A stretch of DNA of 37,417 nucleotides from a virus. The notes under the pieces were generated by a model, which was not told the DNA's origin, did no database searches, and saw nothing but the letters and a program-made list of their open reading frames with translations. The translations under genes and the position numbers were made by a program. Position 1 is the first letter of the stretch; each line of letters starts with the position of its first letter. The stretch is from the UHGV virus genome UHGV-0367149; one strand, written 5' to 3'. Shown piece after piece: positions 1,827-14,862 of the stretch.

Positions 1827-4298
1827 TTAAGAATCAGCCTGACTCGGGATCAGTTTTTGCCAGATAACTGAAACGTATTTTGCCTGGTAACGGGCGTCAT
1901 CAAGTGCATTATGGCGCTCACCTTCGAATGGAATAGCCGTTCTGGCATCGAAGTCTATGGCTTTCCCCAGCTCAACGATTGTGCGTACATCGCGATCGTT
2001 GTAGTAACGCCACGGGCAGGGGATCCCCTGCCGTTCGTATGAACGGCGCAAAATCGTGTTGTCGAAGTTGGCTCCATTTCCCCAGACCTGAACAAAAAAT
2101 TCACCGGAGTTTTCGTCGATAAATTCCCGCAATTGTAACAGTGCATCATCTAACGGGATTTCATCGGTCATAATGGCAGATTGCGCTTCGCGTGATTGCT
2201 TAAGCCACCATTTAATGGTGTCCCGATCAATGACTCCGCCAGCAGTTTCCAGATCGATAGTCTTACTAAATTCCGGTCCCATATCTCCGGTTTGCGGATC
2301 GAAAAATATTGCACCTATTGAGATGATCGGGGCATCAGGATTTTTTCCCATGGTTTCAAGGTCTATCATTAGATGGTCACACGTCCTGCTGGTGGATGTG
2401 ATTTCGTGATGACCGTTCACCTTAATTGAGTGATCTGCCGTCTCGCCAGTTTCATTATCGCTATCGTGATGCTGATTGCCGCCAGCATTCTCCTTGTGTG
2501 GATGTTCAGCGCCTTCCATTTTCTCCGGATCATCTTCCTGAACTTCAACCTGATACTCTTCATCGAATGTTTCTTGGTATGTTGCGTCGCCCATCACCGC
2601 GCCACAATCAGGGCAGTTGCCACCGCCGGTCTGACCGCAGGCGGTGCAGACTTTTTCCACTTCCTGATGCGCCACTGGCTCAGGCTGTTTCGTTTCTGGC
2701 TCGTTTTGTAACGCATTTGGGCTGTTTTGTTCCGCTTTTTGGTAGTTCCGTTCCGATTCATGCTGGTTCTGGTTCACAGAATCGCGGGTCTGGATCCCCT
2801 TAACCCATTTCGGATCATTCGGGTCACTAATCCCTTCAACAAATTCACCACGTGATGCAGCAAGCAACTTATCGGCGTCAGGCTGGCTGATATTGGCTGC
2901 CTGCATAATTTTGTTTACTTCGTCAGCGGTAACTTTTATCGGCTCTGGTTGTTCTGAATCTTCAGCGGTATCTACATTTTGCGGTAAGCCCGTGTATGTG
3001 CCATTTTTTCGGGCAAAATATTCTTCTTTTGTGATTTCAGTGGCGCCAGCAGCCAGTGCCTTATCCAGACCAGAAAGTTTGTTTGCGCGACCGTATTTTT
3101 CTCCGTCCTTATCTGCGAAGAGGAAATAGAACGGCCCCTCACGCTCTACAGATGGTTCAGCTTCCGGCGCGGTTTCATTTTTTGGGATATCAGATACCTC
3201 AGTTTCCACTGCATCAGTTTGTGTTTCTGATGACTGGAGAACATCAACAGTGCCCAGGTCTGTTTCTTCATTCTCAAACACGCCCTTTGTCGTCAGGTAT
3301 TCGCAGATATATTTGTTCAGTGCTATGGGATCTTTGTGAATGTCGATCGGACGCTCACGGACAAGGCCAAAAATAGTTTGGCGGTCGTAGCGAAGGGCAT
3401 CAGGCTGTTTGCGCATTGATGCCGAGATACGCTTCCAGTCTTCGCGGTCGTTGTCGATAACTTCATTTTTTGCCCAGCGATGGATGCTGCCATCAATGTT
3501 TCCGGCATCCACATCACCAGGCCAGAGAGCGTAGGCCAGTTCGTCATCCAGTGTTTTCCATGTCTGCTTGTATTCGCGATGGATGGCAGCAATGACCGGG
3601 CTGATTTTTCCTGTTGAATTTTCAGTGTACTGTTGATTGGCTCTGGCGCGGGCGAGATCAACAACAGACGTGTATTTTCCGGTTTCCTTGCGTTCACCTT
3701 CGCGACGTTTTTTCCAGATGCGCATCTCTGCCTGAATTTCGGGCCATTTAGCACCAGGAATACATTTATGCTTAACCCACCCAATGGCGTGCAACTTAAG
3801 CTCCGGATACATGGCGTTAACTTCTGGCATTTTCATCAACGCTTCAACGATATGTCCGTCGAATGTTGCCATGTCTTCCTGCAACAATTCCTGTGCGCTA
3901 ATAACCATATCAACGGTGATGTTTTCACATGTGTCGAACTTAACCATGACAGCGTTCTGTACTTCAGGGGCCAGCTTGTCAAAAGTGACGTTCATCGGAT
4001 CGGATTCAGTCTCAACCGGGACAAAAGAAGCAGACTCCTCATCCCAGCGGTTTTCCTGCATATATTCAGCATCCCATGAATCGAGGGCAGGGCGGGGTAT
4101 GCCAGGTTTATCCTCGCAGACAATAAATTTATAAGCGCAGTCCTGAGCAGCCGGATAATGTTCCAGGAATTGCCAGTGAAATTTTGCGCGGGCGCGACGT
4201 TCATCACCGGCTTCAATGGCAGTGGCTACAGCGACGGCACCTTCTTCCTTTATTGCCTGTTCGCCCGGAATGGCGGCGCAAATAAAGACTTTACTCAT
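1827..4298 (-). CDS. exodeoxyribonuclease VIII-like protein (RecE/YdfE family) with C-terminal DnaQ-like 3'-5' exonuclease domain
   Basis: 823-aa ORF. Central segment ...PDADKLLAASRGEFVEGISDPNDPKWVKGIQTRD... recalled as RecE-like. C-terminus has DEDDh-type motifs (MIDLETMG..., ...WGNGANFD..., ...HNALDDARY). A CxxC...CxxC zinc ribbon (CTACGQTGGGNCPDCG) lies between them. Confidence 0.75.
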   Translation of the reverse strand: MSKVFICAAIPGEQAIKEEGAVAVATAIEAGDERRARAKFHWQFLEHYPAAQDCAYKFIVCEDKPGIPRPALDSWDAEYMQENRWDEESASFVPVETESDPMNVTFDKLAPEVQNAVMVKFDTCENITVDMVISAQELLQEDMATFDGHIVEALMKMPEVNAMYPELKLHAIGWVKHKCIPGAKWPEIQAEMRIWKKRREGERKETGKYTSVVDLARARANQQYTENSTGKISPVIAAIHREYKQTWKTLDDELAYALWPGDVDAGNIDGSIHRWAKNEVIDNDREDWKRISASMRKQPDALRYDRQTIFGLVRERPIDIHKDPIALNKYICEYLTTKGVFENEETDLGTVDVLQSSETQTDAVETEVSDIPKNETAPEAEPSVEREGPFYFLFADKDGEKYGRANKLSGLDKALAAGATEITKEEYFARKNGTYTGLPQNVDTAEDSEQPEPIKVTADEVNKIMQAANISQPDADKLLAASRGEFVEGISDPNDPKWVKGIQTRDSVNQNQHESERNYQKAEQNSPNALQNEPETKQPEPVAHQEVEKVCTACGQTGGGNCPDCGAVMGDATYQETFDEEYQVEVQEDDPEKMEGAEHPHKENAGGNQHHDSDNETGETADHSIKVNGHHEITSTSRTCDHLMIDLETMGKNPDAPIISIGAIFFDPQTGDMGPEFSKTIDLETAGGVIDRDTIKWWLKQSREAQSAIMTDEIPLDDALLQLREFIDENSGEFFVQVWGNGANFDNTILRRSYERQGIPCPWRYYNDRDVRTIVELGKAIDFDARTAIPFEGERHNALDDARYQAKYVSVIWQKLIPSQADS

Positions 4299-11478: not shown

Positions 11479-11718
11479 ATGGGTAGCATTAACCTGCGTA
11501 TTGACGATGAACTTAAAGCGCGTTCTTACGCCGCGCTTGAAAAAATGGGTGTAACTCCTTCTGAAGCGCTTCGTCTCATGCTCGAGTATATCGCTGACAA
11601 TGAACGCTTGCCGTTCAAACAGACACTCCTGAGTGATGAAGATGCTGAACTTGTGGAGATAGTGAAAGAACGGCTTCGTAATCCTAAGCCAGTACGTGTG
11701 ACGCTGGATGAACTCTGA
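11479..11718 (+). CDS. relB: RelB antitoxin
   Basis: 79-aa ORF MGSINLRIDDELKARSYAALEKMGVTPSEALRLMLEYIADNERLPFKQTLLSDEDAELVEIVKERLRNPKPVRVTLDEL, matching K-12 RelB as recalled. Confidence 0.92.
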   Translation: MGSINLRIDDELKARSYAALEKMGVTPSEALRLMLEYIADNERLPFKQTLLSDEDAELVEIVKERLRNPKPVRVTLDEL

Positions 11719-12005
11719 TGGCGTATTTTCTGGATTTTGACGAGCGGGCACTAAAGGAATGGCGAAAGCTGGGCTCGACGGTACGTGAACAGTTGAAAAA
11801 GAAGCTGGTTGAAGTACTTGAGTCACCCCGGATTGAAGCAAACAAGCTCCGTGGTATGCCTGATTGTTACAAGATTAAGCTCCGGTCTTCAGGCTATCGC
11901 CTTGTATACCAGGTTATAGACGAGAAAGTTGTCGTTTTCGTGATTTCTGTTGGGAAAAGAGAACGCTCGGAAGTATATAGCGAGGCGGTCAAACGCATTC
12001 TCTGA
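11718..12005 (+). CDS. relE: RelE mRNA-interferase toxin
   Basis: 95-aa ORF MAYFLDFDERALKEWRKLGSTVREQLKKKLVEVLESPRIEANKLRGMPDCYKIKLRSSGYRLVYQVIDEKVVVFVISVGKRERSEVYSEAVKRIL. Start overlaps the relB stop. Confidence 0.92.
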   Translation: MAYFLDFDERALKEWRKLGSTVREQLKKKLVEVLESPRIEANKLRGMPDCYKIKLRSSGYRLVYQVIDEKVVVFVISVGKRERSEVYSEAVKRIL

Positions 12006-12076: not shown

Positions 12077-12232
12077 ATGAAGCAGCAAAAGGCGATGTTA
12101 ATCGCCCTGATCGTCATCTGTTTAACCGTCATAGTGACGGCACTGGTAACGAGGAAAGACCTCTGCGAGGTACGAATCCGAACCGGCCAGACGGAGGTCG
12201 CTGTCTTCACAGCTTACGAACCTGAGGAGTAA
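12077..12232 (+). CDS. hokD: HokD (RelF) Hok-family membrane toxin
   Basis: Not in the ORF track (51 aa). ATG at 12077 to TAA at 12230-12232 encodes MKQQKAMLIALIVICLTVIVTALVTRKDLCEVRIRTGQTEVAVFTAYEPEE, matching HokD as recalled. Directly downstream of relE. Confidence 0.88.
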   Translation: MKQQKAMLIALIVICLTVIVTALVTRKDLCEVRIRTGQTEVAVFTAYEPEE

Positions 12233-12299
12233 GAGACCCGGCGGGGGAGAAATCCCTCGCCACCTCTGATGTGGCAGGCATCCTCAACGCACCCGCACT

Positions 12300-12330
12300 T
12301 AACCCGCTTCGGCGGGTTTTTGTTTTTATT
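12300..12330 (+). terminator. intrinsic terminator after relB-relE-hokD
   Basis: AACCCGCTTCGGCGGGTTTTTGTTTTTATT: GC-rich hairpin followed by a T-tract. Confidence 0.65.
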
Positions 12331-12448: not shown

Positions 12449-12700
12449 ATGATGAACATCGAAGAACTGCGTAAAATTTTTTGTGAAGATGGCCTCTATG
12501 CTGTGTGCGTTGAAAATGGAAATCTTGTTAGTCATTACCGCATTATGTGTTTGCGAAAGAATGGGGCTGCGTTAATTAATTTTGTGGATGCTCGGGTCAC
12601 GGACGGATTTATCTTGCGCGAAGGTGAGTTTGTCACTTCATTACAGGCATTGAAAGAGATCGGAATAAAAGCTGGCTTTTCTGCTTTTTCAGGAGAATAA
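12449..12700 (+). CDS. rem: Rem (Qin-prophage small protein)
   Basis: 83-aa ORF downstream of hokD, the position and length of K-12 rem. Sequence identity is recalled only weakly. Confidence 0.6.
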   Translation: MMNIEELRKIFCEDGLYAVCVENGNLVSHYRIMCLRKNGAALINFVDARVTDGFILREGEFVTSLQALKEIGIKAGFSAFSGE

Positions 12701-12766
12701 ACTCATCTACAATCTTGCGCGGGGCTGAACTCCCGCTGAGTAACACCGTGCCACCGGAGAAAACCG

Positions 12767-13045
12767 ATGGCACGCAACGCAAAATATTACAATTCTGATA
12801 ATTCGCCCGTTCTTGCCTGCACGCACGGGCGGTATTCTCACGCATTCAAGTCTGAATGGTTCCAGCACCCTCCATGCACTGCAGAACAGGCCGAATGGCT
12901 GATTCATTCTTACCGCAGGCGCGGGTTCGAGGTTAAGAAAGCTCTCAGTCTCGACTATCGGCACTGGATAATCTCTGTCAGGCTGCCTTATTCCGAACGC
13001 CCACCACGTGCGTCCCGCACTTTCCAGCAACGGATCTGGAGGTAA
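12767..13045 (+). CDS. hypothetical 92-aa protein, translationally coupled to ydfU
   Basis: ATG at 12767 preceded by GGAG. Its TAA stop (13043-13045) sits inside the GGAGG Shine-Dalgarno of the downstream GTG start. No recognised family. Confidence 0.4.
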   Translation: MARNAKYYNSDNSPVLACTHGRYSHAFKSEWFQHPPCTAEQAEWLIHSYRRRGFEVKKALSLDYRHWIISVRLPYSERPPRASRTFQQRIWR

Positions 13046-13046
13046 C

Positions 13047-14096
13047 GTGCGGGTATTACTTAGACCTGTTCTGGTGCCTGAGCTTGGGCTGGTGGTCCTT
13101 AAGCCGGGCCGTGAATCCATACAGATATTTCATAATCCTCGAGTGCTGGTGGAACCGGAACCAAAAAGCATGCGTAATCTGCCATCCGGAGTCGTTCCTG
13201 CCGTTCGCCAGCCGCTGGCGGAAGACAAAACATTGCTGCCGTTTTTTAGTAACGAACGGGTGATTCGTGCTGCTGGCGACGTTGGCGCATTGTCCGACTG
13301 GCTATTACGTCATGTTACATCCTGCCAGTGGCCTAATGGCGATTACCATCACACTGAAACAGTCATTCACCGTTATGGTACCGGCGCAATGGTGTTGTGC
13401 TGGCACTGCGACAACCAACTGCGTGACCAGACATCGGAATCACTGGAGCTGCTTGCTCAACAAAATCTGACAGCATGGGTGATTGACGTCATCCGTCACG
13501 CAATAAGCGGTACGCAGGAGCGGGAATTATCTTTGGCTGAATTATCCTGGTGGGCGGTCTGCAATCAGGTGGTGGATGCACTACCTGAGGCTGTATCGCG
13601 TCGTTCGCTGGGATTACCAGCGGAAAAAATCTGCTCGGTGTACCGCGAAAGCGACATCGTACCGGGAGAGCAGACCGCCACCAGCATATTGAAACAACGC
13701 ACAAAAAATCTTGCACCGTTGCCTTACGCCCACCAGCAACAAAAATCACCACAGGAAAAGACGGTGGTAAGCATCACCGTTGATCCAGAGTCTCCGGAAT
13801 CTTTCATGAAGCTGCCTAAACGTCGCCGCTGGGTTAAGGAGAAATACACACGTTGGGTTAAGACACAGCCGTGTGCTTGCTGCGGTATGCCAGCCGACGA
13901 TCCGCATCATCTGATTGGTCACGGGCAGGGCGGAATGGGAACAAAAGCACATGATCTCTTTGTGTTGCCTTTGTGCAGAAAGCATCACAACGAGCTGCAT
14001 ACGGATACAGTGGCATTTGAAGATAAGTATGGCTCCCAACTGGAGCTGATATTTCGTTTTATCGATCGCGCGCTGGCAATTGGCGTACTGGCGTAA
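13047..14096 (+). CDS. ydfU: YdfU (DUF968) protein with HNH-like Cys/His motif
   Basis: GTG at 13047 with GGAGG 5 nt upstream gives 349 aa, the K-12 YdfU length as recalled. C-terminus ...CACCGMPADDPHHLIGHGQGG...CRKHHNELH is an HNH/zinc-finger-like signature. The ORF-track ATG at 13008 is the alternative start. Confidence 0.75.
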   Translation: MRVLLRPVLVPELGLVVLKPGRESIQIFHNPRVLVEPEPKSMRNLPSGVVPAVRQPLAEDKTLLPFFSNERVIRAAGDVGALSDWLLRHVTSCQWPNGDYHHTETVIHRYGTGAMVLCWHCDNQLRDQTSESLELLAQQNLTAWVIDVIRHAISGTQERELSLAELSWWAVCNQVVDALPEAVSRRSLGLPAEKICSVYRESDIVPGEQTATSILKQRTKNLAPLPYAHQQQKSPQEKTVVSITVDPESPESFMKLPKRRRWVKEKYTRWVKTQPCACCGMPADDPHHLIGHGQGGMGTKAHDLFVLPLCRKHHNELHTDTVAFEDKYGSQLELIFRFIDRALAIGVLA

Positions 14097-14109: not shown

Positions 14110-14862
14110 ATGAACCTTGAAGCCTTACCAAAATATTACTCCCCAAAATCTCCAAAATTGAGCGATGACGCTCCAGCGACAGGCACCGGTTGTTTAACAA
14201 TTACGGATGTAATGGCAGCGCAGGGGATGGTGCAGTCGAAAGCACCACTTGGGTTGGCCTTATTTCTGGCAAAAGTTGGTGTTCAGGACCCTCAGTTTGC
14301 GATTGAAGGCCTGCTAAATTACGCGATGGCACTGGATAACCCGACATTGAACAAATTGAGTGAAGAAATCCGGTTACAGATTATTCCTTACCTCGTGAGT
14401 TTTGCCTTTGCTGATTACTCCAGGTCTGCGGCAAGTAAGGCTCGCTGTGAGCATTGTTCAGGTACGGGATTTTATAATGTATTGCGCGAAGTGGTGAAAC
14501 ACTACAGACGCGGGGAATCTGTAATCAAGGAAGAATGGGTGAAGGAACTATGTCAGCATTGCCATGGTAAGGGCGAAGCCAGCACAGCGTGCAGAGGGTG
14601 TAAGGGTAAAGGGATTGTTCTGGATGAAAAAAGAACCCGGTTTCATGGCGTACCGGTATATAAGATTTGTGGGCGTTGTAATGGAAACCGGTTTAGTCGT
14701 TTACCGACCACGCTGGCACGACGTCATGTCCAGAAGCTGGTACCAGACCTGACCGATTATCAGTGGTATAAGGGGTATGCGGACGTCATTGGTAAACTGG
14801 TAACAAAGTGCTGGCAGGAAGAAGCATACGCGGAAGCGCAATTGAGGAAGGTGACGAGATAA
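14110..14862 (+). CDS. quuQ: late-gene antiterminator Q
   Basis: ATG at 14110 gives 250 aa (MNLEALPKYY...). Cys-rich region CEHCSGTGF...CQHCHGKGE...CRGCKGKG...CGRCNG typical of Q-family antiterminators. Upstream of the lysis genes. Confidence 0.8.
   Translation: MNLEALPKYYSPKSPKLSDDAPATGTGCLTITDVMAAQGMVQSKAPLGLALFLAKVGVQDPQFAIEGLLNYAMALDNPTLNKLSEEIRLQIIPYLVSFAFADYSRSAASKARCEHCSGTGFYNVLREVVKHYRRGESVIKEEWVKELCQHCHGKGEASTACRGCKGKGIVLDEKRTRFHGVPVYKICGRCNGNRFSRLPTTLARRHVQKLVPDLTDYQWYKGYADVIGKLVTKCWQEEAYAEAQLRKVTR

What the first reader, a model, noticed from the sequence alone, without database searches (positions are those of the whole stretch)
12767..14096. Unannotated 92-aa gene translationally coupled to ydfU; YdfU carries an HNH-like motif
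A 92-aa ORF with its own Shine-Dalgarno ends with a TAA embedded in the GGAGG Shine-Dalgarno of the ydfU GTG start, which suggests coupled expression. YdfU (DUF968) ends with a Cys/His-rich segment resembling HNH nuclease or zinc-finger motifs and sits where NinG-type nucleases sit in other lambdoids. The pair may be a two-component nuclease or regulator of unknown function.
Basis: partly seen in the sequence, partly recalled or inferred. Interest (0 to 1): 0.35.

Follow-up and report, generated by a model that had tools for sequence, protein, structure and literature searches.

The report
Overlooked small phage gene before ydfU
The 92-codon reading frame just upstream of ydfU in the E. coli K-12 Qin prophage is a real, conserved small phage gene that the K-12 reference annotation misses, and it is wired to be translated together with the nuclease gene that follows, but nothing shows the two proteins work as one enzyme.

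Summary
The window is the Qin cryptic prophage of E. coli K-12 (relBE, hokD, rem, ydfU, quuQ).

**Observation holds.** ORF 12767-13045 (92 aa) has a GGAG 7 nt before its ATG. Its last two codons, TGG AGG, form the GGAGG for the ydfU GTG (13047), with TAA and one base between. The gene is absent from the MG1655 reference annotation, but PGAP calls it a hypothetical protein.

**It is coding.**
- Core residues 29-92 have dN/dS 0.125.
- It matches PHROG 1212, a small family confined to enterobacterial phages.
- The model gives a confident beta-alpha-beta-beta core.
- The product is basic (pI about 10).

**Coupling is conserved.** The junction TGG-(A/G)GG-stop-1 or 2 nt-ATG/GTG recurs across the family. 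The genes downstream are DUF968, NinG, YbcO and a fourth HNH type; RusA also follows directly, its junction not read.

**Partnership is not supported.**
- The same small-protein lineage (identical in one case) pairs with different nucleases.
- Some DUF968 genes lack the small gene.
- In distant phages other genes intervene.

**Already published.** YdfU's HNH (His-Me finger) nature is in the literature.

**Verdict:** an ordinary, mostly known lambdoid nin-region gene pair, plus a useful annotation fix. Biochemical function remains unknown.

The parts
12708..12713 (+). Promoter -10-like hexamer TACAAT. It lies at the point where homology begins between modules that have unrelated upstream genes.
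   Evidence: The consensus scan gives TTTTCA-16-TACAAT, 9 of 12 matches. T(A/T)CAAT or GACAAT is kept about 55 nt before the ATG in copies that follow rem, parDE, hok or other genes. No transcription evidence was obtained.
12719..12736 (+). Leader hairpin GCGGGG-CTGAAC-TCCCGC in the 5' untranslated region of the small gene.
   Evidence: Read directly from the sequence. The second leader type has GCCAG-CCTGAACAA-CTGGC at the same place. With only two sequence types, alignment folding gives weak support: -3.45 kcal/mol and 2 pairs changed on both sides. Function unknown.
12756..12759 (+). Shine-Dalgarno GGAG of the 92-aa gene, 7 nt before its ATG.
   Evidence: GGAG or GAGA is kept at this position in other copies.
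12767..13045 (+). 92-aa gene (PHROG 1212 family; RefSeq WP_012304870.1). Residues 1-26 form a disordered, weakly constrained extension specific to the Escherichia lineage (E. coli and sister species). Residues 27-92 are the conserved basic beta-alpha-beta-beta core plus a PRxSRxxQQRIW tail.
   Evidence: - ORF.
- PHROG 1212 at E=1.7e-35 over residues 27-92.
- dN/dS: core 0.125, N-terminal extension 1.1.
- 558 clusters at 90% identity and 105 clusters at 50% identity among 1.84 billion representatives.
- AlphaFold2 pLDDT about 90 for residues 31-70 (10-residue block means), below 50 for 1-24.
- pI 10.2.
13014..13053 (+). Predicted RNA hairpin. CCCGCAC pairs with GTGCGGG (the ydfU start codon), and UUUCCAG pairs with CUGGAGG (the ydfU Shine-Dalgarno sequence). 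Ribosomes finishing the small gene would melt it.
   Evidence: The structure appears in the MFE and centroid folds. The unpaired probability of SD plus start is 0.036, against a mean of 0.234 in 1000 synonymous-codon randomisations; only 9% are as low, which is not significant. It is present in most DUF968-type copies.
13038..13046 (+). Coupling junction GGAGG-TAA-C. The SD for ydfU is built from the last two codons (TGG AGG) of the small gene, followed by the stop codon and a 1-nt spacer.
   Evidence: The terminal codon is AGG in 34 of 34 Arg-ending distinct genes and GGG in 39 of 45 Gly-ending ones. Internally, AGG is 12% of Arg codons and GGG 26% of Gly codons.
13047..14096 (+). ydfU, GTG start, 349 aa, a DUF968 protein.
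   Evidence: RefSeq coordinates. PF06147 at E=1.4e-76 over residues 160-346. PHROG 96 'HNH endonuclease' at E=1.9e-170 over the full length. The alternative upstream GTG at 13008 is not conserved in relatives.
13872..14000 (+). Cys/His-rich HNH (His-Me finger)-like segment of YdfU, residues 276-318: C276 x C278 C279 ... H287 H288 ... C310 xx H313 H314 ... H318.
   Evidence: - Residue positions.
- HNHc_6 scores 26.3 bits, just under its 26.6-bit cutoff; RecA_dep_nuc E=0.0037.
- The best PDB profile hit is YbcO 3G27 over residues 276-323, at E=0.88 only.
- hhalign against a YbcO alignment gives E=0.006 but a probability of only 6%.
- The model shows beta285-288, beta306-309 and helix 311-319; block-mean pLDDT is 73 for 271-280, 33-59 for 281-310 and 76-81 for 311-340.
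- Published classification: PMC5714182.

Best explanation
The 92-codon frame is a genuine phage gene that the MG1655 reference annotation omits.

**What it encodes.** It encodes a small basic protein of an enterobacterial-phage family (PHROG 1212; N15 'Orf QD1' is a relative). The conserved 66-residue core folds as beta-alpha-beta-beta and is followed by a conserved Arg/Gln/Trp-rich tail. The Escherichia lineage adds a 26-residue disordered N-terminal extension.

**Where it sits.** The gene belongs to the lambdoid nin-region DNA-recombination cluster. Its usual place is after NinB/Orf-type genes and directly before the junction or HNH nuclease gene, which here is ydfU.

**How expression is linked (inferred from sequence, not demonstrated).** Expression of the nuclease gene is tied to the small gene by translational coupling.
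- The last two codons (TGG AGG or TGG GGG) are themselves the Shine-Dalgarno sequence of the next gene.
- The stop codon lies 1-2 nt before that gene's start.
- In the Qin type, a hairpin hides the ydfU SD and GTG until a ribosome translating the small gene opens it.

**What the protein does (inference).** Given its charge and its neighbourhood, it most likely binds nucleic acid and acts as an accessory factor in phage recombination or DNA processing. It is not an obligate subunit or inhibitor of YdfU.

**YdfU itself.** It is a DUF968 His-Me finger (HNH) nuclease candidate, as already published.
For: **Coding**
- Core dN/dS is 0.125, and variable sites by codon position are 31/41/65.
- It is the only frame always open.
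- In-frame 2-codon indels occur among homologues.
- 558 clusters at 90% identity, all without a Pfam domain on record among the 120 listed; 105 clusters at 50% identity.
- PHROG 1212 at E=1.7e-35.
- The fold model is confident for the core.

**Coupling**
- Junction sequences from 211 loci all read TGG-(A/G)GG or GGA/GGT, then stop, then 1-2 nt, then ATG/GTG. Exceptions occur only where the next gene is not adjacent or not a nuclease (L004/L212, L187) or in an apparent fusion (L210).
- The terminal codon is biased: AGG 34/34 and GGG 39/45.
- The same junction, TGG AGG TAA AT ATG, appears in a distant family member, weakly matched (E=1e-5), that precedes a fourth HNH nuclease type.
- A hairpin sequesters the SD and start codon.

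**Neighbourhood**
- In the redundant locus set, the downstream gene is DUF968 in 89 loci, NinG in 92 and YbcO in 14.
- NinB, YbcN or DUF1367 lies upstream in many loci.
- The Escherichia long form always precedes DUF968, while its own upstream and downstream flanks vary.

**Basic character:** pI 8.9-10.6 across the family.

**YdfU:**; PMC5714182; PMC4118853.
Against: - No expression data could be found for the small gene.
- A published study places one of the strongest Rho-dependent terminators in K-12 upstream of ydfU (PMC9160355). The region may therefore be poorly transcribed or translated in uninduced K-12.
- The SD/start-hiding hairpin is not significantly better than synonymous randomisations (p about 0.1). 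It is weak in the Klebsiella-type copies.
- The first 28 codons show dN/dS about 1.1, so that part of the frame is not supported by selection, although no other start codon exists.
- No fold or family match says what the protein does. The 'nucleic-acid-binding accessory' role rests only on charge and context.
- The locus census is heavily redundant: many loci are near-identical prophages.
Confidence: 0.7

Rival explanations
1. Two-component nuclease, or nuclease plus regulator. The small protein would bind YdfU, and likewise NinG or YbcO in other phages, as a specificity, activating or restraining subunit. Coupling would then exist to set their stoichiometry.
For: - The small gene is directly adjacent, with a conserved coupling junction, to four different HNH-type nuclease families.
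- The Escherichia long form is always found with DUF968 even though its other neighbours change.
- Two natural in-frame fusions exist: small gene to YbcO in L210, and ORF92 to YdfU in P0261.
Against: - Small proteins of one Klebsiella-type lineage (one sequence identical, the rest differing at a few residues) precede either YbcO (98 aa) or NinG (195 aa).
- Family members precede RusA, which has a different fold, or unknown genes or a methyltransferase. The N15 and PY54 types are not next to a recognisable HNH nuclease gene.
- DUF968 genes with the same C-terminus lack the small gene.
- To my knowledge lambda NinG and DLP12 YbcO have no such partner (own knowledge).
- Each fusion is a single record, so each may be a deletion or a sequencing error.
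- The protein is basic, not acidic like the nuclease immunity proteins I know of.
Confidence: 0.2
2. Leader ORF. What matters is the act of translating the frame, not its product. Translation would control ydfU expression by opening the hairpin and shielding the RNA from Rho, as orf45 does for anrP in Gifsy-1.
For: - The coupling geometry and the hairpin fit this reading.
- Strong Rho-dependent termination has been reported upstream of ydfU.
- There is a precedent: orf45-anrP, where the nucleotide sequence is conserved but the peptide is not (PMC4825925).
- The first 28 codons have dN/dS about 1.1.
Against: - The 66-residue core is under strong purifying selection (dN/dS 0.125).
- The core stays recognisable as a protein in sequences down to about 36-40% identity, and in weaker profile matches, in other genera.
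- A confidently predicted fold is the opposite of the orf45 pattern.
- The two roles are not exclusive.
Confidence: 0.08
3. Chance ORF in an untranslated region between rem and ydfU, as the MG1655 reference annotation implies.
For: No gene is listed there in NC_000913.3. There is no Pfam or NCBIfam match.
Against: - The frame is conserved, with purifying selection on the core.
- Hundreds of homologues occur in several enterobacterial genera.
- It matches PHROG 1212, and PGAP calls it.
Confidence: 0.02

Closest known systems
PHROG 1212 (function unknown): Gifsy-2 STM1021.1n, mEp237 gp51, phiES15 gp17; more distantly PY54 ORF47 and N15 'Orf QD1'
   Same: - Same protein family: HMM E=1.7e-35 over residues 27-92.
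- tblastn identities are 38-48%.
- N15 QD1 is the best hit in the viral structure library (E=2e-3, 32% identity).
- It occupies the same nin-region slot and has the same W-G/R-stop junction.
   Different: - The Escherichia/Qin lineage has a 26-residue N-terminal extension and its own SD after a 66-nt gap, instead of being packed against NinB.
- It is followed by DUF968 rather than NinG or YbcO.
DLP12 YbcO (PF07102, PDB 3G27) and His-Me finger group 7 of Jablonska et al. 2017
   Same: The YdfU C-terminus aligns with the YbcO Cys/His motif: YdfU 276-323 to YbcO 19-67. Both were placed in one His-Me finger group (PMC5714182). Both sit before the Q gene and, in several phages, after a PHROG 1212 gene.
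   Different: YdfU is 349 aa, with about 270 further N-terminal residues of unknown fold (pLDDT below 50 for much of that stretch). The sequence similarity found here is statistically weak (E=0.88; hhalign probability 6%).
Lambda NinG/Rap (PF05766), a branched-DNA endonuclease
   Same: It holds the same genomic slot, between the nin genes and Q, and is also a His-Me finger-type nuclease. In Gifsy-2 and GF-2 it is the gene that follows the small gene, with the same junction.
   Different: YdfU does not match the NinG model at E up to 1. It is a positional analogue, not a family member.
orf45-anrP of Gifsy-1: an upstream ORF translationally coupled to a prophage regulator (PMC4825925)
   Same: A short upstream ORF whose stop abuts the start of the next prophage gene. 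For orf45, translation was shown experimentally to be needed for expression of the downstream gene.
   Different: The orf45 peptide is not conserved, whereas the ORF92 core is strongly conserved as a protein. No sRNA control is known here, and coupling has not been tested.

Membership tests
PHROG 1212 small phage protein | Significant match to the family profile over its full length. | tested here: met
   E=1.7e-35; residues 27-92 match profile positions 1-66 of 66.
DUF968 (PF06147), for YdfU | Score above the Pfam gathering threshold. | tested here: met
   256.8 bits against a 27.8-bit cutoff; residues 160-346 cover the whole profile.
His-Me finger / HNH nuclease, for YdfU | Cys/His zinc-binding and catalytic His motif in a beta-beta-alpha arrangement. 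| tested here: inconclusive
   - The motif residues are present: C276, C279, H287/H288, C310, H313/H314 and H318.
- The predicted elements are beta285-288, beta306-309 and helix 311-319, but the model is poor overall (mean pLDDT 51).
- HNHc_6 scores 26.3 bits against a 26.6-bit cutoff.
- The top Foldseek hits are HNH domains at a non-significant E=0.64.
- PHROG 96 is annotated 'HNH endonuclease'.
- The published assignment is in PMC5714182.
His-Me finger / HNH nuclease, for YdfU | Metal-dependent nuclease activity. | not testable with these tools
   Needs purified protein. None of the papers read here reports an assay of YdfU.
NinG/Rap (PF05766), for YdfU | Match to the NinG profile. | tested here: not met
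   NinG is not among the Pfam hits at E up to 1. True NinG proteins from related loci score 1.2e-83.
Translationally coupled gene pair (termination-reinitiation) | The stop of the upstream gene lies within a few nt of the downstream start, with the SD inside the upstream coding sequence. | tested here: met
   GGAGG 13038-13042, TAA 13043-13045, GTG 13047.
Translationally coupled gene pair (termination-reinitiation) | The arrangement is conserved in relatives beyond what coding alone requires. | tested here: met
   The junction is kept before four nuclease types. The terminal codon is AGG in 34/34 and GGG in 39/45 distinct genes, against 12% and 26% internally. The sequences are related, so these counts are not independent events.
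Translationally coupled gene pair (termination-reinitiation) | The downstream initiation site is occluded by structure that upstream translation opens. | tested here: inconclusive
   A hairpin is predicted, with an unpaired probability of 0.036. However, 9-12% of synonymous randomisations do as well, and the hairpin is weak in some family branches.
Translationally coupled gene pair (termination-reinitiation) | Downstream translation depends on upstream translation. | not testable with these tools
   Needs reporter fusions with stop or start mutants.
Nuclease plus cognate inhibitor/immunity or obligate subunit pair | Strict co-occurrence of the two partners. | tested here: not met
   DUF968 genes occur without the small gene. 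The small gene occurs without an adjacent nuclease, or next to RusA or other genes. One small-protein type pairs with two nuclease types.
Nuclease plus cognate inhibitor/immunity or obligate subunit pair | Physical interaction. | not testable with these tools
   No complex-prediction tool was available here. It needs pull-down assays or co-folding.

The most novel reading that the evidence does not exclude
The PHROG 1212 protein is a general accessory factor of the lambdoid recombination module. It would be a small basic DNA-branch or ssDNA binder that hands substrates from NinB/Orf to whichever resolving nuclease follows it (NinG, YbcO, DUF968, RusA), or that restrains that nuclease. This would explain why its gene is kept directly upstream of, and translationally locked to, interchangeable nuclease genes.
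Probability: 0.15. Interest if true: 0.5.

Novelty: new member of a known kind. Interest (0 to 1): 0.25.

Why it matters
- **Annotation.** It corrects a gap in the reference annotation of the best-studied bacterial genome. The 346-bp stretch between rem and ydfU, which has no annotated gene, holds a conserved gene.
- **Rho studies.** Studies of Rho-dependent termination upstream of ydfU would need to take a translated frame there into account.
- **Phage genomics.** It defines a small, Pfam-less family whose gene is consistently locked to the recombination-nuclease slot of lambdoid phages.
- **A testable example.** The pair is a clean case of an SD built into the last two codons of the preceding gene.

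It does not reveal a new kind of system.

Tried and rejected
**Searches for the small protein's function that found nothing**
- Pfam, NCBIfam and PADLOC gave no hit.
- Foldseek of the ORF92 model found nothing significant in PDB; the weak top hits were small alpha/beta domains such as PlyG CBD, R3H and KH, all at E>0.2. In BFVD only the homologue N15 QD1 appeared.

**YdfU structure**
- Only close homologues (at least 77% identity) were listed.
- The resulting model was poor (pLDDT 51), so the fold search was uninformative.
- phmmer against PDB found nothing.

**Collection scans**
- The genome-contig scan with a family alignment used one narrow pattern and returned only 5 loci.

**Expression evidence**
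- A search for the MG1655 start coordinate and a look in the Weaver et al. preprint supplements found nothing usable.

**Ideas considered and dropped**
- The antisense 137-aa ORF (12707-13120, minus strand) is interrupted in most relatives.
- The upstream GTG at 13008 as the ydfU start is not conserved.
- The fusions P0261 and L210 as Rosetta-stone evidence are single records only.
- The leader hairpin as a conserved RNA element rests on only two sequence types, and alignment folding is weak.
Full report
**Where we are.** The window is the Qin cryptic prophage of E. coli K-12. A megablast of 12700-14120 hits K-12 genomes at 99.9-100% identity. The RefSeq features map as follows:

| Gene | Window coordinates |
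|---|---|
| relB | 11479-11718 |
| relE | 11718-12005 |
| hokD | 12077-12232 |
| rem | 12449-12700 |
| ydfU | 13047-14096 |
| quuQ/ydfT | 14110-14862 |

**Check of the observation.**
- The ORF runs from ATG 12767 to TAA 13043-13045 and encodes 92 aa.
- GGAG at 12756-12759 lies 7 nt before the ATG.
- The last two codons, TGG AGG, spell the GGAGG (13038-13042) that serves the ydfU GTG at 13047. The TAA and one C lie between. The stop therefore abuts the Shine-Dalgarno sequence rather than sitting inside it.
- The MG1655 reference record lists no gene in the 346 bp between rem and ydfU.
- NCBI's PGAP pipeline does call the ORF, as hypothetical protein WP_012304870.1, in other K-12 and E. coli genomes. 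Several phage records also annotate it. 'Unannotated' is therefore true only of the reference annotation.

**Is it a gene? Yes.**
- I extracted the ORF from 94 related loci, which gave 34 distinct DNA sequences.
- Pooled pairwise dN/dS is 0.23 overall and 0.125 for codons 29-92. Variable sites by codon position are 31/41/65.
- The sense frame is the only one of six that stays open in all copies. The overlapping antisense 137-aa ORF is broken in most.
- Homologues at 63-99% identity keep the length at 90-92 aa, with in-frame two-codon indels.
- A profile search finds 558 protein clusters at 90% identity, none of the 120 listed with a Pfam domain on record.
- An exhaustive HMMER scan of 1.84 billion cluster representatives finds only 105 clusters at 50% identity. 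This is a small, narrow family.
- Residues 27-92 match PHROG 1212, a 66-residue family of unknown function, at E=1.7e-35.
- Outside Escherichia the protein is about 66 aa and starts at the position equivalent to residue 27. Examples are Gifsy-2, mEp237, phiES15, PY54, and Klebsiella, Edwardsiella and Hafnia phages.
- The first 26-28 residues are thus specific to the Escherichia lineage (E. coli, E. albertii, E. marmotae). They show dN/dS about 1.1 and are predicted disordered. They are still needed, because no other in-frame start codon precedes the conserved core.

**What the protein looks like.**
- AlphaFold2 with a 29-sequence alignment gives pLDDT about 90 over residues 31-70 (10-residue block means). 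The model has strands 28-33, 55-60 and 67-75, a helix at 39-52, a less confident Pro/Arg-rich linker (PRxSR), and a short C-terminal helix at 84-91.
- Foldseek finds nothing significant in PDB (best E=0.22). In the viral library the only notable hit is the homologue N15 'Orf QD1'.
- Pfam, NCBIfam and PADLOC give nothing.
- The family is consistently basic, with pI 8.9-10.6.
- Function cannot be read from fold or family.

**The junction is the most interesting feature.**
- I located the small gene and the next gene in 211 loci from E. coli genomes, IMG/VR contigs and GenBank phages.
- The junction almost always reads TGG-(A/G)GG, then TAA or TGA, then 1-2 nt, then ATG or GTG.
- Among 81 distinct small-gene sequences the terminal codon is AGG in all 34 that end in Arg, and GGG in 39 of 45 that end in Gly. 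Inside the same genes, AGG is 12% of Arg codons and GGG is 26% of Gly codons.
- The two exceptions are PY54 (AAA) and L210 (GCA). In PY54 the next gene is 48 nt away; L210 is an apparent fusion.
- These sequences are related, so the counts are not independent events.
- The pattern nevertheless holds in a distant family member, weakly matched (P0245, E=1e-5; locus L221). Its junction is TGG AGG TAA AT ATG.
- In the K-12 sequence a 14-bp interrupted hairpin (13014-13053) pairs the ydfU start codon and SD with codons 83-87 of the small gene.
- The SD and start codon have an unpaired probability of 0.036, against a mean of 0.234 for 1000 synonymous-codon randomisations. About 9% of those randomisations do as well, so this is suggestive but not significant.
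- The hairpin is present in most DUF968-type copies and weaker in some other branches.
- Taken together, the geometry for termination-reinitiation coupling is conserved and probably selected. Coupling itself has not been tested.

**What lies downstream.** In my redundant locus set, with Pfam confirmation of representatives:

| Next gene | Loci |
|---|---|
| NinG | 92 |
| DUF968 (YdfU type) | 89 |
| YbcO | 14 |

- The Escherichia long form always precedes DUF968. Its other neighbours vary: rem, parDE, hok or unknown genes upstream, and RusA plus a lambda-Q-type antiterminator or a Qin-type Q downstream.
- A fourth HNH type follows a distant member. It matches PHROG 5034, annotated NinG/Rap endonuclease, and has no Pfam match.

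**The link to the nuclease is not specific.**
- Klebsiella-type small proteins of one lineage (one identical sequence among them) precede either YbcO (98 aa) or NinG (195 aa).
- Other members are followed by RusA, in one case with DUF968 after it.
- Others are followed by one to four unrelated genes and then NinG. These are Hafnia, Erwinia and Pantoea phages plus the members P0204, P0259 and P0213.
- Members in the linear plasmid-prophages PY54 and N15-like YDC107_1 are followed by genes that are not recognisable HNH-type nuclease genes: an unknown ORF in PY54 and a gene annotated 'putative exonuclease' in YDC107_1.
- Conversely, E. coli DUF968 genes that share YdfU's C-terminal third are preceded by a KilA-N gene, with no small gene present.
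- Upstream of the small gene one often finds NinB/Orf, YbcN or DUF1367.
- The picture is a gene with a fixed slot in the nin-region recombination cluster: after the Orf-type mediator and before the resolving nuclease. It is not a dedicated partner of DUF968.
- Two in-frame fusions exist: small gene to YbcO in L210, and ORF92 to YdfU in P0261, the latter consistent with a 13-nt deletion at the junction (inferred from the protein sequence). Each is a single record and cannot carry weight.

**YdfU.**
- It matches DUF968 at E=1.4e-76, HNHc_6 at 26.3 bits (cutoff 26.6) and RecA_dep_nuc at E=0.0037.
- It matches PHROG 96 'HNH endonuclease' over the full length.
- The Cys/His cluster lies at residues 276-318.
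- A profile search of PDB sequences puts YbcO (3G27) first, but only at E=0.88. hhalign against a YbcO alignment gives E=0.006 with low probability.
- The structure model is poor (mean pLDDT 51), with a beta-beta-alpha element at 285-319 whose helix is modelled at pLDDT about 76-81. Its top fold hits are HNH domains at non-significant E-values.
- My own tests are thus consistent but weak.
- The assignment is already in the literature. Jablonska et al. 2017 put YdfU and YbcO together in His-Me finger group 7 and noted RusA and Q as neighbours (PMC5714182).
- Curtis et al. [quoted passage not shown]
- YdfU does not match the NinG model, so it is a positional analogue of NinG and not a member of that family.

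**Expression context.**
- I found no ribosome-profiling or proteomic evidence for the small gene.
- One study lists the terminator upstream of ydfU among the strongest Rho-dependent terminators in K-12 (PMC9160355). This fits a silenced cryptic prophage and may explain the lack of expression data.
- It also means that what has been treated as an untranslated region upstream of ydfU contains a conserved coding frame.

**Interpretation.**
- Most likely (about 0.7): a genuine, conserved small basic phage protein of the nin recombination cluster. Its gene is translationally coupled to the following nuclease gene. The protein's own role is unknown and is guessed to be an accessory role in nucleic-acid binding.
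- A pure 'leader ORF' role, as for orf45-anrP of Gifsy-1 (PMC4825925), conflicts with the strong protein-level conservation of the core (about 0.08).
- A chance ORF is excluded.

**Novelty and interest.**
- Already on record: the gene call in PGAP, the PHROG family, and YdfU's HNH classification.
- Possibly new: that this family is locked, through an SD built into its last two codons, to whichever nuclease gene occupies the next slot; and that the MG1655 reference lacks the gene.
- This is a useful annotation correction and a tidy coupling example, not a new kind of system. Interest is 0.25.

Noticed in passing
window 12241-12322 (+): Weak Rfam match to the Gifsy-1 sRNA family isrK (25.1 bits against a gathering score of 50; E=0.016). 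It ends at the intrinsic-terminator-like hairpin at 12301-12318 just after hokD. The same terminator sequence lies directly upstream of the small-gene leader in relatives that lack rem (L086, L098, L099).
   Followed up: partly
window 12708-12736 (+): A -10-like TACAAT and a hairpin with a CUGAAC loop mark the exact point where modules with unrelated upstream genes (rem, parDE, hok) become homologous. A second leader type has a different stem (GCCAG/CUGGC) around the same loop motif. This may be a promoter plus a leader element for the small-gene/ydfU unit, but with only two sequence types the covariation support is weak.
   Followed up: partly
window 12767-12850 (+), codons 1-28 of the small gene: The N-terminal extension has dN/dS about 1.1. 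Its synonymous divergence is also much lower than in the core (pS 0.11 against 0.31), an odd combination. Possible causes are a different recombination history or an overlapping nucleotide-level constraint.
   Followed up: no
P0261 (one E. coli contig); L210:about 2800-3400: Two single-record in-frame fusions of the small protein to its downstream nuclease. In P0261, ORF92 residues 1-89 are fused to YdfU, consistent with a 13-nt deletion of the junction (inferred from the protein sequence). In L210 a 194-aa protein joins the small protein to YbcO. Either could be a real deletion or an assembly error.
   Followed up: partly
L218:2329-3318 and L219:2326-3315 (E. coli chromosomes): A second class of DUF968 protein (329 aa) shares only the C-terminal, HNH-containing third with ydfU at the DNA level. 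It is preceded by a KilA-N domain gene and RusA instead of the small gene, so the DUF968 N-terminal region appears to be modular.
   Followed up: partly
window 12449-12700 (+), rem: Rem (83 aa) matches only PHROG 340 (function unknown), plus a far sub-threshold hit to SocB toxin (14.9 bits against a 210-bit cutoff). Some phage records label the small gene 'toxin to Rem' with no evidence that I could find. In relatives rem is absent, or is replaced by parDE or hok, so it behaves as an inserted moron.
   Followed up: no
window 12701-13046, the region upstream of ydfU: A published RT-qPCR study ranks the Rho-dependent terminator upstream of ydfU among the strongest in K-12 (PMC9160355). That zone would lie somewhere upstream of ydfU, a region that includes the conserved 92-aa coding frame; the passages read give no coordinates and do not mention such a frame.
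   Followed up: partly
window 14110-14862 (+), quuQ: Besides the Antiterm domain, the Q antiterminator matches a DnaJ-type CXXCXGXG zinc-finger domain (35.4 bits, above its 32.7-bit cutoff).
   Followed up: no
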